NCBI RefSeq assembly: GCF_016903815.1
Contig: NZ_CP069973.1
Source of the DNA: Escherichia coli
GTDB lineage: Bacteria; Pseudomonadota; Gammaproteobacteria; Enterobacterales; Enterobacteriaceae
DNA: 64,000 bases
Reading direction: 5' to 3' (one strand)
Shown: positions 21,001-24,000 of the stretch, piece after piece
Numbering within the stretch: the stretch's first letter is position 1
How the letters are laid out: each line of letters begins with the position of its first letter
Made by a program: the position numbers

Positions 21001-24000
21001 TAGATGCTGTATCCGGCGCCGACGACAACTATGAACAGAGTCGCTACGCTTAAAGCATTCAGGACATTGTGCTGTTTTGCGTTTTCCGTGGAGATGGAGG
21101 GTTATACCGTCAGAGCTAATAATTTGTCGACTGCATCGCCATCCGCAAGGTAACTGTAGAAGTGTCTTAAGAGAGTGCATTGCGTTGCCCATAACTTAAA
21201 ACAGCTTAGATCCTTGTTCGCCAGAAAGTTTCATCCATTTTCTTCCACCCAGGTTGCGGAAGAACCACTTTTCATCCGTCGTTGACAGATGTGAAGTATG
21301 CGGGAGAAAAAGTGAATATCTAACTGTAATAACTCAGACCGGTACGAGTACTCGGGACGTCTACAATCATTCAGGGCAAAGTGCTAAAATTTCTCTATCC
21401 CGGGATGCCCCTACCAACGCAGCACTCCCGGAGATATCATTACAGCTCTGCAACTGATTTCCGCGACTGAACCGCTCAGTTCCTATCCTTCCAGTTGCCC
21501 TCCTGCCCCCCCTCCCTGCTGTATACCCCGGTACCACAACTCGGGCAGCACTTTTCCCCCTCATAATTTTCGTCACACATCACACAAAACCACTTTCTCA
21601 CCTTCACCGTATAATCCGGAACCGTCATACCCTGCAGATGCAAACGACGGGCCTCTTTCTCTGCCGGGTCAAGCCAGGTGCATCGCAGCAGGATTTTCTC
21701 AGCGACAGTCATCTGGTCATGTTCAAACCACGGTGGTTGTCCGTCATTGCCCCGCTGAAGTGTTAACGGGCATCCACAGGACACACAGCACAAAACGTCC
21801 TGGCGGTTGTGCTTCGCTGCTTCTTTCGCCGTAACAAAATGGCCTTTGCTGTCATTCGCCATATAACAGTTCAGAATTCGCATATTTCCTCCTGAGTTGT
21901 CCGGGGAATACTGAATCCTCCGGTCTGGCAGTGTGTGCAGTACCGCTCCCCATAATAATCGTGGTGACATTGTCTGCAGTGCCAGCTGGCTTTACGCACC
22001 ACGGGTAAGGCATCCGGTACGAATTGCTGCAGACGTTTAATCAACTGTATTTCTCTGCGCTCCGGCCTGACATAAGGGCACTGTTGACCGTGCTCTGTCA
22101 GCCTGTCGTCAGTGTGTTCAAACCAGGGAAGTTCAGTGTCGTATTGCGGATGGTATCTGAGTGCACTGCCACACAAGTGGCAGGTGTAGTTAGCATAAGG
22201 TGCGGCCTGTGCAGTACGGGCGCCCGTCAGACGTCCGTTGCCATCAAGAGCGATAAAGGATTTTGCGTACATAGTCATATTCCTCAGCCGCCAGACGACA
22301 CGCAGGCAACAGCCGTCCCGGTACGGGCAGCGTGGTCAGGGTGTGAATGGCGGTTCAGTTAAAATCTGGACTGGAGTTTGGGTAAAGCAGGCTGGTTGCT
22401 GTTACAGCACTGTGGTTGTCACACAATGGAACACTGACGTAAAAAACAGTCAGTGGGCGAGTGGATACATCGTTGCCGCCAGACAACAACCCATACTTTT
22501 GGTTTGCCGGGTATTGGCGCGCCAGTCGTGCTCAACTCCGGCTACAGCCAAAATTGCGCTCACCGGTGCAGTGAGCTTTGGTATGTTCCTTCGCCAGATA
22601 GTCAGCACGTTCCAGCACCTGCTGAAAGCCAGTGTCATCATCGCGTTCCAGCCACACCGCCGGCCAGGCCGGAAAATGCACCAGCGTGGCATGGCACCCG
22701 ACATCCACTCCCAGGGCACTGCACCACGCCTGTTTAATCATCCCGGCCAGTGATCCCGGAGCACGGTAATCACCGGCACGACACCAGGTATCCCGGTTAA
22801 CCAGCAGCATCAGGTGATAGTGTTTTTTACCTTTGCACTCCCCAAACTCCCGGGCCCAGACGTAATGCAGGGTTGTGGGATGCACGCGTTTACCTTCCCG
22901 ATGCTTACGTTTCTGGTAAGCGTCGATTCGGGCTTTCAGGGCATTGATGAAGCGGGATATCACAGCTGCGTCCGTTGCTGCCGGTACATCCGGGAAACGC
23001 AGGTCAACCCGCAATGCCGTCAGGCGGGGATGAACATTCAGTGCGTGCCGCACCGTCTCACGAATACGTTGCTGCCAGAAGGGGTTGTATTTGTAGGTCA
23101 TGGTTAAATCTCCGTATGGTTCATACGGAATAGCCACGTCGTAAAAAATGCGCAGAGTCCCTGAAGTGACCTCCGGCAGGACACTGTCTCAGGCACTCTG
23201 TGATAACCCGAACGGTCGTCTCCGGACTGACGGTTGAATTTTCAGCGTTGTTTTTTTAATGTAAAAAACCGGTTACGGGTAAGGCTGTGAGGAGGGAGTG
23301 ATGGTGATACGCAAAAAGAAGTGCAGGGACTGTGGAAACGCGATTACTCATAATACAGTGTGTTGCCCGTATTGTGGTTCTGTCGACCCCTTCGGCTATT
23401 ACCGGAATACAGACCGTATCGTTACCATACTGCTGGCACTGATTATTGTGGTCCTGCTGACTACTGTCAGCGTCAGTCAGTGTGTATATACTGTGTAGCT
23501 GGTGAGATAACGGTTCATGTATCCCCTGAGCTGACAGTGTACCGGGTATATTAAGCGTAACCGACAGGTTCTCCTTCATACCATATTAAATTTTTCCAGG
23601 TATTGCCGCTGCCTTATTTCGTCCCATACAGGAAAACTCGTCTGGGTTTCTGACAAATACGCGAAACTCACAGCCCCTCAATATCAACCACACGCTGTAA
23701 GCCGGTAATACCTGAAAATCAGCCTATTACCGCCCGCGCCTCCGTTACCGAACGCTCAGGTGACCAGACTGAAGCCCAGCACGCACTCGTAAAATTTGCG
23801 GTCAGTTCCGTCAGTCAGTGGGCAACCGCAGAGTTACGGGCTTCCAGGTCCACAGGAGTGAGTCTATAACGCGTGTGGGAAATCATTTTTTCTGGCGTTG
23901 ACAGAACGCCTTACGGGCTGCCACTTACCCGGTGTCCCGCAATACAGCCTTAGTGTTCCGTTATCGGGGATCCGGACGCACCGCAACAACCGGGGAAGTA

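What the first reader, a model, noticed from the sequence alone, without database searches (positions are those of the whole stretch)
21476..22278. Tandem, overlapping paralogous zinc-ribbon proteins sharing a PWFEH motif
Two adjacent minus-strand ORFs (~135 aa each), each with its own Shine-Dalgarno, share the architecture CxxCG...PWFEH...C-x2-C...Y-GE-x-C...C. The second start overlaps the first gene's end. Tandem duplication and divergence of a small Cys-rich protein is unusual, and I do not recognise the family.
Basis: seen in the sequence. Interest (0 to 1): 0.55.

Follow-up and report, generated by a model that had tools for sequence, protein, structure and literature searches.

The report
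Paired zinc proteins of E. coli islands
The two overlapping genes are real, ancient paralogues of a catalogued but unstudied family of small two-zinc proteins that sits beside the replication and excision-control genes of a common class of E. coli genomic islands; their function is unknown, and binding the island's DNA is only the likeliest guess.

Summary
Two minus-strand genes, ZrA (22272/22278..21871) and ZrB (21883..21476), each have a Shine-Dalgarno site and overlap by 13 nt. They are paralogues: BLASTP gives 31% identity, E 3e-15.

The family is not unrecognised. Both proteins match Pfam DUF7828 plus Zn_ribbon_11 (formerly DUF3279). RefSeq calls them "putative zinc ribbon protein". The same DNA, at roughly 85% identity or more, occurs in 3808 of 5426 complete E. 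coli genomes.

New here:
- The N-terminal part, including PWFEH, is homologous to the zinc finger at the N-terminus of competence nuclease CoiA (hhalign probability 95.9%). The nuclease domain is absent.
- The A-then-B tandem, with its overlap, is conserved across many Enterobacterales genera.
- The genes nearly always lie downstream of a YagK/YfjJ rolling-circle Rep-like gene and alpA, in CP4-44/CP4-57-type islands.
- None were found in 50,697 phage genomes or in the three K-12 islands checked.
- Both genes are under purifying selection (dN/dS 0.1-0.3).

Function is unknown. My best guess, at low confidence, is nucleic-acid-binding accessory factors of the island's Rep/AlpA module. An AlphaFold test of an A-B complex was uninformative. 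This is a catalogued family with a tidy, previously undescribed context, of modest interest.

The parts
21871..22278 (-). ZrA gene (A-type paralogue). The ORF runs from the ATG at 22278 (135 aa). The likely true start is the ATG at 22272 (133 aa, MYAKSF...). The stop TGA is at 21873-21871. RefSeq WP_000270974, 'putative zinc ribbon protein'.
   Evidence: Pfam DUF7828 E 2.8e-31 plus Zn_ribbon_11 E 1.3e-9. AF2 mean pLDDT 85.4. dN/dS 0.11-0.31.
21476..21883 (-). ZrB gene (B-type paralogue), 135 aa, MRILNCYMAND... RefSeq WP_001221623, 'zinc-ribbon domain-containing protein'.
   Evidence: Pfam DUF7828 E 7.7e-31 plus Zn_ribbon_11 E 7e-18. dN/dS 0.10-0.28. In the fused model it has the same order of secondary-structure elements as ZrA.
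21871..21883 (-). 13-nt overlap between the end of ZrA and the start of ZrB, suggesting translational coupling.
   Evidence: Read from the sequence. The same 13-nt overlap occurs in L007-L012 and L040, and a 10-nt overlap in L018.
21888..21893 (-). Shine-Dalgarno AGGAGG for ZrB, 4 nt before its ATG. It lies inside the ZrA coding sequence.
   Evidence: Sequence.
22281..22285 (-). Shine-Dalgarno GAGGA for ZrA. It is 8 nt from the ATG at 22272 and only 2 nt from the ATG at 22278.
   Evidence: Sequence. An AAGGA/GAGGA at this position is conserved in the leader alignment.
22012..22269 (-). ZrA N-terminal domain (aa 4-89, DUF7828). It comprises a CoiA_N-like zinc finger (C33, C36, H55, C67) and a helix. 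PWFEH is encoded at 22114-22128.
   Evidence: hhalign against CoiA N-termini gives probability 95.9%, E 6e-9.
21895..21993 (-). ZrA C-terminal C4 zinc ribbon (aa 96-128, Zn_ribbon_11; C101, C104, C114, C117).
   Evidence: Three short strands in the AF2 model. The only structural resemblance is to generic zinc ribbons.
21617..21874 (-). ZrB N-terminal domain (aa 4-89, DUF7828). PWFEH is encoded at 21719-21733.
   Evidence: The 19-nt direct repeat D1, at 21720-21738 and 22115-22133 with 395-nt spacing, is the WFEH-coding DNA of the two genes.
21509..21607 (-). ZrB C-terminal C4 zinc ribbon (aa 93-125, Zn_ribbon_11).
22273..22355 (-). Conserved non-coding leader in front of ZrA, with core CTGCCC-N5-GGGACGGCTNNNGCCTGCGTGTYGTCTGGCGGTAAGGA. 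It is a candidate regulatory site of unknown role.
   Evidence: It is conserved at a fixed distance from the ZrA start in more than 20 loci of many genera. It occurs once in the window. There is no Rfam match and the folding-energy z-score is 0.02. Covariation is weak.
22532..23137 (-). Upstream gene on the same strand: a YagK/YfjJ-family ('inovirus Gp2 family') rolling-circle Rep-like protein with an HUH motif (HYHLML) and a YLAK motif. It is probably the first gene of the operon.
   Evidence: Pfam YagK_YfjJ_C E 1.3e-47 and REP_ORF2-G2P E 6e-5. Motifs are seen in the alignment. No terminator-like site lies on the minus strand between it and ZrA, and a promoter-like site lies at 23265-23238.

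Best explanation
SHOWN. ZrA and ZrB are two paralogous small proteins of about 135 aa. Each has an N-terminal CoiA_N-like zinc finger (ligands probably C33, C36, H55, C67; PWFEH carries the His), a linker helix, and a C-terminal C4 zinc ribbon. They belong to the catalogued but uncharacterised family Pfam DUF7828 plus Zn_ribbon_11. They are expressed as a translationally coupled pair. They are conserved core-adjacent genes of CP4-44/CP4-57-type integrative islands (P4-type integrase) of Enterobacterales. They sit at the end of the operon that carries a YagK/YfjJ HUH Rep-like gene and, in most loci, alpA, and that operon reads toward the variable cargo region.

INFERRED, with low confidence. 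They are nucleic-acid-binding accessory factors of this Rep/AlpA module. After AlpA-triggered excision, the Rep-like HUH protein would act on the circular island. The two zinc proteins, possibly as an A-B heteromer, would recognise island DNA or single-stranded or branched intermediates. This would parallel the presumed role of the homologous zinc finger on the CoiA nuclease, which resolves transformation D-loops. In this way they would help or control island replication or transfer. The B-like form looks ancestral and occurs singly in divergent lineages. The A form looks like a later, tightly conserved duplicate.
For: Identity:
- Paralogy: BLASTP E 3e-15.
- Pfam DUF7828 plus Zn_ribbon_11 in both proteins and in all 73 aligned members.
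- Invariant Cys/His pattern.
- Confident two-domain AF2 model for ZrA, pLDDT 85.4.
- N-domain homology to real Bacillus CoiA N-termini: hhalign probability 95.9%, E 6e-9, score 47, against a maximum of 18 in 30 column-shuffled controls. Recurrent sub-threshold Pfam CoiA_N hits in 8 of 73 members.
- CoiA is a PD-(D/E)XK nuclease needed for transformation D-loop resolution, with a small N-terminal zinc finger (bioRxiv 10.1101/2024.02.06.579203).

Real genes under selection:
- dN/dS 0.1-0.3 for both genes.
- N-terminal conservation acts at the protein level, not the nucleotide level.

Ancient pair:
- A followed by B on the same strand in Mixta, Hafnia, Siccibacter, Superficieibacter, Tenebrionibacter, Serratia, Buttiauxella, Budvicia, Salmonella diarizonae and others, with the same 13-nt overlap in L007-L012 and L040.

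Context:
- In 31 of 35 tabulated loci a YagK/YfjJ-like gene lies less than 1.5 kb upstream on the same strand. All four exceptions are truncated (L018) or decayed copies (L026, L027) or have the gene slightly further away (L024).
- alpA lies upstream on the same strand in 27 loci. Independent gene calls agree.
- The upstream Rep-like proteins keep the HUH and Y-x-x-K motifs.
- No minus-strand terminator-like site lies between the Rep-like gene and ZrA.
- The family is absent from 50,697 phage genomes and rare on plasmids. It is a small family of 288 clusters at 50% identity, nearly all stand-alone proteins.
- All three singletons looked up are B-like, as are 24 of 28 divergent cluster representatives.
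Against: - No experiment and no literature exists on this family.
- The predicted pI is near neutral (6.3-9.0, mostly 6.4-8.4), not the strongly basic value of many DNA binders.
- The fused A-linker-B AlphaFold run gave pTM 0.32 and pLDDT 62, so a heteromer is not supported. The alignment had only 11 paired rows and no inter-chain confidence output was available, so the test is inconclusive.
- The three K-12 islands of this type have YagK/YfjJ, and CP4-57 also has AlpA, yet none has a Zr gene. CP4-57 is reported to be excision-proficient. The pair is therefore not needed for excision and is dispensable for at least some islands.
- Many copies are decayed: frameshifted or truncated in L013, L017, L020 and L024-L026.
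Confidence: 0.35

Rival explanations
1. The proteins are transcription factors that act on RNA polymerase rather than on island DNA replication. They would be small zinc proteins that switch on island genes or helper-phage genes, by analogy with P2 Ogr and P4 Delta, where Delta is itself a tandem duplication of an Ogr-like zinc finger. Alternatively they would be secondary-channel or surface binders with an Rpb9-like two-zinc layout.
For: They lie directly after alpA, a transcriptional activator, in most loci. They have a two-zinc-module architecture. A profile search of PDB sequences gave RPB9 as the top hit, with a 76-column alignment spanning both zinc modules, but only at E 0.01. Related AlpA/Gp2-carrying islands of Pseudomonas are moved by a jumbo phage (PMC12595487), so helper manipulation is conceivable.
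Confidence: 0.2
2. The proteins are accessory recombination-directionality or integrase-control factors. They would help AlpA and the P4-type integrase excise or re-integrate the island.
For: They are co-transcribed with or placed next to alpA, and the operon points toward the cargo region and integrase end of the island.
Against: K-12 CP4-57 has intA and alpA but no Zr genes, and it is reported to excise on AlpA induction (literature recalled from memory and listed). The linkage to the Rep-like gene is tighter than the linkage to the integrase, which is often many kb away or missing, as in this window.
Confidence: 0.1
3. The pair is part of the island's conflict cargo: an anti-phage defence or anti-defence pair, or a toxin-antitoxin-like pair, placed at the edge of the cargo hotspot.
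For: The genes border the variable region, which in other islands holds defence systems: abpAB and rnlAB in CP4-57, and SMEK/CTD10/MC6/DUF2326 genes in L030. Two small overlapping genes resemble a toxin-antitoxin layout.
Against: PADLOC gave no match beyond a 30-residue hit at E 0.035. Cargo varies between islands, whereas this pair keeps a fixed position, order and leader across genera. The two proteins are paralogues, which is unlike toxin-antitoxin pairs. No enzymatic or effector domain is present.
Confidence: 0.1

Closest known systems
Pfam DUF7828 (PF25165) plus Zn_ribbon_11 (PF11682, formerly DUF3279); UniProt 'Ybl85'; RefSeq 'putative zinc ribbon protein'
   Same: Both proteins are full-length members: E about 1e-31 for DUF7828 and 1e-9 to 7e-18 for Zn_ribbon_11. 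All 73 aligned relatives have both domains. The exact sequences are RefSeq WP_000270974 and WP_001221623.
   Different: Nothing differs; this is the family. The family has no assigned function and no literature. I found no published description of the A/B paralogue split, the conserved tandem, or the Rep/AlpA linkage.
N-terminal zinc finger of competence protein CoiA (Pfam CoiA_N, PF25164)
   Same: Profile-profile homology over about 51 columns, probability 95.9%. The layout is the same: a beta-hairpin (F-x-A-x-x-x-x-G), then C-x2-C, then P-[HW]-F-x-H. PWFEH corresponds to PHFAH.
   Different: CoiA carries a PD-(D/E)XK nuclease domain and a C-terminal domain (PF06054, PF25166). ZrA and ZrB have neither; they end in a C4 zinc ribbon instead. 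The first His of CoiA's H-F-A-H is Trp here, so the ligand set probably differs (C2HC with C67). CoiA is a competence gene of Firmicutes, whereas these are mobile-island genes of Enterobacterales.
P2 Ogr / P4 Delta zinc-finger late-gene activators
   Same: By analogy only: small zinc-binding proteins of P4-integrase-type elements, and Delta is a tandem duplication of the Ogr unit.
   Different: No detectable sequence relationship (no Pfam Ogr_Delta hit). Here the duplicates are separate genes, each with two zinc modules. The islands lack the other P4 satellite genes. The description of Ogr and Delta is from memory and was not tested here.
RNA polymerase II subunit Rpb9 (two zinc ribbons joined by a linker)
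   Same: The overall two-zinc-module spacing is similar. It was the top hit of the family profile against PDB sequences (E 0.01).
   Different: The E-value is marginal and the ligands do not align. Fold searches do not support it. It is a eukaryotic or archaeal RNAP subunit, whereas these are bacterial island proteins.

Membership tests
Pfam DUF7828 + Zn_ribbon_11 family ('putative zinc ribbon protein', Ybl85/DUF3279) | Significant match to the DUF7828 profile over its full length | tested here: met
   ZrA E 2.8e-31 (model positions 1-87 of 87). ZrB E 7.7e-31 (model positions 2-86 of 87).
Pfam DUF7828 + Zn_ribbon_11 family ('putative zinc ribbon protein', Ybl85/DUF3279) | Significant match to the Zn_ribbon_11 profile at the C-terminus, with four Cys | tested here: met
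   ZrA E 1.3e-9 and ZrB E 7e-18. C101, C104, C114 and C117 are invariant in 73 sequences.
Pfam DUF7828 + Zn_ribbon_11 family ('putative zinc ribbon protein', Ybl85/DUF3279) | Actual binding of two zinc ions per chain | not testable with these tools
   Inferred only from the invariant C/C/H/C and C4 sets and the confident fold.
Competence protein CoiA family | CoiA_N-type N-terminal zinc finger | tested here: met
   hhalign of the Zr N-domain profile against eight real CoiA N-termini gave probability 95.9%, E 6e-9, score 47, against a shuffled-control maximum of 18. Direct Pfam CoiA_N hits are only sub-threshold (best 1.3e-3; 8 of 73 members).
Competence protein CoiA family | PD-(D/E)XK nuclease domain (PF06054) and CoiA C-terminal domain (PF25166) | tested here: not met
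   No hit in either protein or in any of the 73 members. The proteins are 135 aa, against about 380 aa for CoiA. They are therefore not CoiA family members; only the N-terminal finger is shared.
Ogr/Delta zinc-finger transcription activators (P2/P4) | Match to the Ogr_Delta profile (C-x2-C-x22-C-x4-C finger) | tested here: not met
   The family does not appear among Pfam hits even at E 10.
Rpb9/TFIIS-type double zinc-ribbon RNAP factors | Sequence or fold match with aligned metal ligands | tested here: inconclusive
Known anti-phage defence systems (PADLOC-DB) | Match to a defence-system protein model | tested here: not met
   ZrA has none. ZrB has only a 30-residue hit to PDC-S64 at E 0.035.
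Core module of CP4-44/CP4-57-type integrative islands (YagK/YfjJ Rep-like + AlpA) | Conserved same-strand adjacency to a YagK/YfjJ-family gene and to alpA across taxa | tested here: met
   A Rep-like gene lies less than 1.5 kb upstream in 31 of 35 tabulated loci, and alpA lies upstream in 27. Independent gene calls and Pfam labels agree. In the window the Rep-like gene ends 253 nt upstream of the first ATG of ZrA.
Core module of CP4-44/CP4-57-type integrative islands (YagK/YfjJ Rep-like + AlpA) | Present in all islands of the type (i.e. indispensable) | tested here: not met
   K-12 CP4-44, CP4-57 and CP4-6 have no Zr homologue (tblastn with 14 diverse queries at E 0.01).

The most novel reading that the evidence does not exclude
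ZrA and ZrB form a heteromeric DNA- or ssDNA-recognition factor that partners the HUH Rep-like YagK/YfjJ protein. Together with the conserved leader in front of ZrA, it would control rolling-circle replication or packaging and transfer of excised CP4-type islands. That would make it a previously unrecognised accessory class for the most common family of E. coli 'cryptic prophage' islands. It would also give a first function to the CoiA_N-type zinc finger outside competence.
Probability: 0.2. Interest if true: 0.55.

Novelty: already known. Interest (0 to 1): 0.3.

Why it matters
CP4-44/CP4-57-type islands are present in most E. coli genomes and carry defence systems, toxin-antitoxin pairs and virulence cargo, yet how they replicate and move is poorly understood. 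This gene pair is one of the few conserved, selected, non-cargo genes next to their Rep-like and AlpA genes, and it occurs in about 70% of complete E. coli genomes. It has never been studied, probably because K-12 lacks it. Knowing what it does would help explain the biology of these islands. It would also assign a role to two Pfam families of unknown function and to the CoiA-type zinc finger. As a sequence finding, however, it is an already catalogued family with no surprising feature.

Tried and rejected
1. NCBIfam, PADLOC and PHROGs scans of both proteins found nothing significant.

2. Fold searches with the confident ZrA model found no homologue of known function:
- Foldseek against PDB: best E 0.6, generic zinc ribbons only (rubrerythrin, MCM, RPB12).
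- Foldseek against AFDB50: among the 50 matches listed, only family members.

3. The profile against PDB sequences gave RPB9 at E 0.01. I did not accept it, because the ligands are misaligned and no fold search supports it.

4. AlphaFold of a fused A-(GGGGS)6-B chain with 11 paired sequences gave pTM 0.32 and pLDDT 62. This is uninformative about a heteromer. No inter-chain confidence output or coordinates were available.

5. A first attempt to fetch loci with the mixed A+B alignment failed because it had no conserved stretch. An A-only alignment worked.

6. Literature searches for DUF7828, DUF3279, PF11682, Ybl85 and 'putative zinc ribbon protein' found nothing relevant.

7. I tested whether the extreme N-terminal conservation of ZrA reflects a nucleotide-level element. 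It does not: synonymous-codon identity is flat along the gene.

8. I tested the conserved leader as a structured RNA. There is no Rfam hit, the MFE z-score is 0.02, RNAalifold gives -4.8 kcal/mol, and a hand-drawn three-helix model has only weak covariation and is biased because I derived it from the consensus. I also looked for repeated operator or iteron copies of its core. A second copy at -216 exists only in this lineage.

9. I tested whether islands with Zr genes lack a YfjI (DUF3987) gene. No YfjI was found within about 8 kb in any Zr locus. This is weak and I did not build on it.

10. I rejected the idea that the frames lie inside a larger gene.
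Full report
**1. What is in the sequence**

The window is an Escherichia coli chromosome. Window positions 12000-36000 match strain 7/2 (NZ_CP023820) at 100% identity in a single aligned piece. The finding lies in the CP4-44-type island beside cobUST and the Asn tRNA genes.

Two minus-strand genes are present.
- ZrA runs 22278..21871 and is 135 aa from the first ATG. RefSeq and all homologues start at the second ATG, 22272 (MYAKSF...). That start sits 8 nt from a GAGGA, against 2 nt for the first ATG.
- ZrB runs 21883..21476 and is 135 aa. It is preceded by AGGAGG at a 4-nt spacing.
- The ZrB start lies 13 nt inside the end of ZrA.
- The 164-aa ORF that the ORF lister reports for ZrB is an upstream in-frame extension that no homologue uses.

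The two proteins align at 31% identity over 118 residues, E 3e-15. A 19-nt direct repeat spaced 395 nt apart, which is exactly the gene period, is the WFEH-coding DNA of both genes. No larger gene on another frame covers them. Between genera both frames show dN/dS of 0.10-0.31.

**2. What the proteins are**

Both match Pfam DUF7828 (E about 1e-31) and Zn_ribbon_11, formerly DUF3279 (E 1.3e-9 and 7e-18). RefSeq annotates them as WP_000270974 'putative zinc ribbon protein' and WP_001221623 'zinc-ribbon domain-containing protein'. UniProt entries are called 'Ybl85', 'DUF3279', or, wrongly, 'DNA-directed RNA polymerase beta subunit'. NCBIfam, PADLOC and PHROGs have nothing, and no paper in the library mentions the family.

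The family is small. A profile search of 1.84 billion cluster representatives found 288 proteins, and among the 150 listed nearly all are stand-alone proteins of 60-170 aa. All 73 full-length members I aligned carry both domains. The invariant residues are C33, C36, F53 and H55, then W99, C101, C104, C114 and C117. C67, W52, Y108, G110 and G120 are conserved in at least 90%. This pattern fits a C2HC site followed by a C4 ribbon.

AlphaFold2 with that alignment gives a confident model of ZrA (mean pLDDT 85.4). It has a beta-beta-alpha-beta-beta N-domain, a helix at residues 74-86, and a three-stranded C-terminal ribbon. In the fused model ZrB shows the same order of elements.

**3. The PWFEH motif explained**

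Pfam scans gave recurrent sub-threshold hits to CoiA_N (8 of 73 members) and DUF7830 (6 of 73). I retrieved genuine Bacillus CoiA proteins, which carry PF25164, PF06054 and PF25166. I then compared a profile of their first 75 residues with the Zr N-domain profile.

hhalign gave probability 95.9%, E 6e-9 and score 47 over 51 columns. Thirty column-shuffled controls reached at most 18. The alignment places FIALDGNGRLTG...YTCHLCGSAL...PWFEH on FSAVTEDGQMFH...FFCPVCGEEL...PHFAH.

The N-domain is therefore a CoiA-type zinc finger. CoiA is a PD-(D/E)XK nuclease required for resolving the transformation D-loop, and it is described as having a small putative zinc finger at its N-terminus (bioRxiv 10.1101/2024.02.06.579203). 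ZrA and ZrB lack the nuclease and C-terminal domains, so they are not CoiA family members. They share only the finger.

**4. Distribution and the tandem**

The 1151-nt region is found at megablast level in 3808 of 5426 complete E. coli genomes. The median is 2 places per genome and the maximum is 7. There is no match in 50,697 phage genomes. Only 33 of 72,556 plasmid records match, and several of those are chromosome-sized. Only 4 IMG/VR contigs match.

A scan of one genome per species returned 25 loci. They come from Salmonella, Mixta, Hafnia, Siccibacter, Superficieibacter, Tenebrionibacter, Trabulsiella, Serratia, Buttiauxella, Citrobacter, Yersinia, Budvicia, Leclercia, Enterobacillus, Enterobacter and Erwinia, plus a few MAGs labelled as unrelated taxa.

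In most loci that are intact, an A-type gene is followed on the same strand by a B-type gene. The same 13-nt overlap is found in L007-L012 and L040, and a 10-nt overlap in L018. The duplication is therefore old and its order is fixed.

Divergent lineages carry a single gene (L029, L030-L032, L037). These singletons, and 24 of 28 divergent cluster representatives, score as B-like. A-type forms a tight clade. This suggests that B is the ancestral form and A a later, strongly conserved duplicate. Several copies are decayed (L013, L017, L020, L024-L026).

**5. Genomic context**

In 31 of 35 tabulated loci a YagK/YfjJ-family ('inovirus Gp2') gene lies less than 1.5 kb upstream on the same strand. 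alpA lies upstream on the same strand in 27. Precomputed gene calls agree. They show YagK_YfjJ_C/REP_ORF2-G2P, then Phage_AlpA, then Zr or the Zr pair, followed by variable cargo and, where present, the P4-type integrase.

Two layouts occur:
- Rep-like, then AlpA, then ZrA, then ZrB.
- AlpA, then a 205-aa protein with no Pfam match, then Rep-like, then ZrA, then ZrB.

The window has the second order for Rep-like, ZrA and ZrB on the minus strand. Its alpA and the 205-aa gene are on the opposite strand.

The window's Rep-like protein matches YagK_YfjJ_C (E 1e-47) and REP_ORF2-G2P. Like its orthologues, including K-12 YfjJ and YagK, it keeps an HUH motif (HYHLML) and a Y-L-A-K motif. A second Gp2-like paralogue that often follows ZrB has lost both motifs. 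No minus-strand terminator-like site separates the Rep-like gene from ZrA.

K-12 CP4-44, CP4-57 and CP4-6 have no Zr homologue. In CP4-57 the slot after yfjJ holds the abpAB and rnlAB defence genes. This probably explains why the family has never been studied. It also shows that the pair is not indispensable to such islands.

**6. Mechanism**

What is shown is this. The pair consists of selected, translationally coupled, paralogous two-zinc proteins. They have a CoiA-type finger and a C4 ribbon. They are fixed at the end of the Rep-like/AlpA operon of a widespread island family.

What I infer, at low confidence (about 0.35 for the whole statement), is that they bind nucleic acid and assist or control what the HUH Rep-like protein and AlpA do to the excised island, possibly acting as a heteromer.

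Evidence against this inference:
- The pI is near neutral.
- No structural relative binds DNA.
- The fused-chain AlphaFold test was uninformative (pTM 0.32).
- Some islands do without the pair.

The rivals are an RNAP-directed transcription factor (Ogr/Delta- or Rpb9-like; a marginal RPB9 hit at E 0.01, and no Pfam support), an excision accessory (argued against by CP4-57), and conflict cargo (argued against by the fixed position and the absence of a PADLOC match).

**7. Side observation**

A leader of about 80 nt in front of ZrA (22273-22355) is conserved across genera at a fixed distance from the start codon. It is more conserved than the synonymous sites of the gene. It occurs once in the window. 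It has no Rfam match and no thermodynamic signal, and it shows only weak covariation. It is probably a protein-binding or promoter-proximal site. Its role is open.

**8. Verdict**

The family, however, is already catalogued and extremely common. The tandem is an ancestral feature of a mobile-island module rather than an oddity. I did not find the following described in the literature:
- the link between the CoiA-type finger and PWFEH;
- the A/B split with B-like singletons;
- the conserved overlap;
- the conserved leader;
- the tight Rep-like/AlpA linkage.

All of these are useful context but only modestly surprising. Interest 0.3.

Noticed in passing
window 22273-22355 (-): A non-coding leader of about 80 nt directly upstream of ZrA, with core CTGCCC-N5-GGGACGGCTNNNGCCTGCGTGTYGTCTGGCGGTAAGGA. 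It is conserved at a fixed distance (-27) from the start codon in more than 20 loci of many genera, and it is more conserved than the synonymous sites of ZrA. It has no Rfam hit, a folding z-score of 0.02 and only weak covariation. Its role is unknown.
   Followed up: partly
window 23298-23498 (+): A 66-aa ORF (RefSeq WP_001575858, hypothetical) with a CxxC...CxxC zinc ribbon followed by a hydrophobic C-terminal helix. It lies in the divergent region between the Rep-like gene and alpA, so it is a third small zinc-ribbon protein in this module.
   Followed up: no
window 24916-25533 (+); also L005-L007, L024, L006:9425-10087, L016:8495-9067: A 205-aa protein with no Pfam match even at E 10. It is nevertheless conserved directly after alpA in several genera, and a paralogue recurs just downstream of the Zr genes in L006 and L016. 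It is another uncharacterised core gene of these islands.
   Followed up: partly
L006:8793-9389, L021:9248-9793 (and tblastn hits after ZrB in L007-L012, L022, L023): A second YagK/YfjJ-like gene often follows ZrB. In the two sequences aligned (L006, L021) this downstream paralogue has lost the HUH and Y-x-x-K motifs that the upstream Rep-like gene keeps.
   Followed up: partly
L041 (K-12 CP4-57), L042 (CP4-6), L003 (CP4-44): The three K-12 islands of this type have no Zr homologue. In CP4-57 the position after yfjJ is occupied by the abpAB and rnlAB defence genes, so the Zr genes mark the edge of the cargo hotspot.
   Followed up: yes
window 23500-24630: About 1.1 kb between the small zinc-ribbon ORF and alpA has no annotated gene in RefSeq and only short ORFs.
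   Followed up: no
window 32211-36576 (+): A cluster of a dynamin-family GTPase, an RdcB-family protein and a patatin-like phospholipase lies downstream of a YeeP-like GTPase inside the same island.
   Followed up: no
window 19573-21192 (-) and 40731-41104 (+): An ISL3-family transposase with an internal stop lies directly downstream of ZrB, and cbtA is frameshifted. Both are signs that this island copy is decaying, and no integrase is annotated within the island.
   Followed up: no
L014:1592-4234: Serratia sp. Ag1 carries four members of the family in a row (two upstream of a Gp2-like gene and an A-B pair downstream). L038 has a B-type gene followed by a third gene that has only the DUF7828 domain. 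P0201 is a 238-aa fusion of an N-domain-only unit with a full B-type unit.
   Followed up: no
window 61952-62068 (-) and 50370-50444 (-): Rfam matches unrelated to the finding: an ALIL pseudoknot (IS3-family frameshift element) and the sRNA STnc240. The scan also found the His leader at 53183-53306 and three tRNA genes (annotated tRNA-Asn in the matching RefSeq record) at 5333-9635.
   Followed up: no
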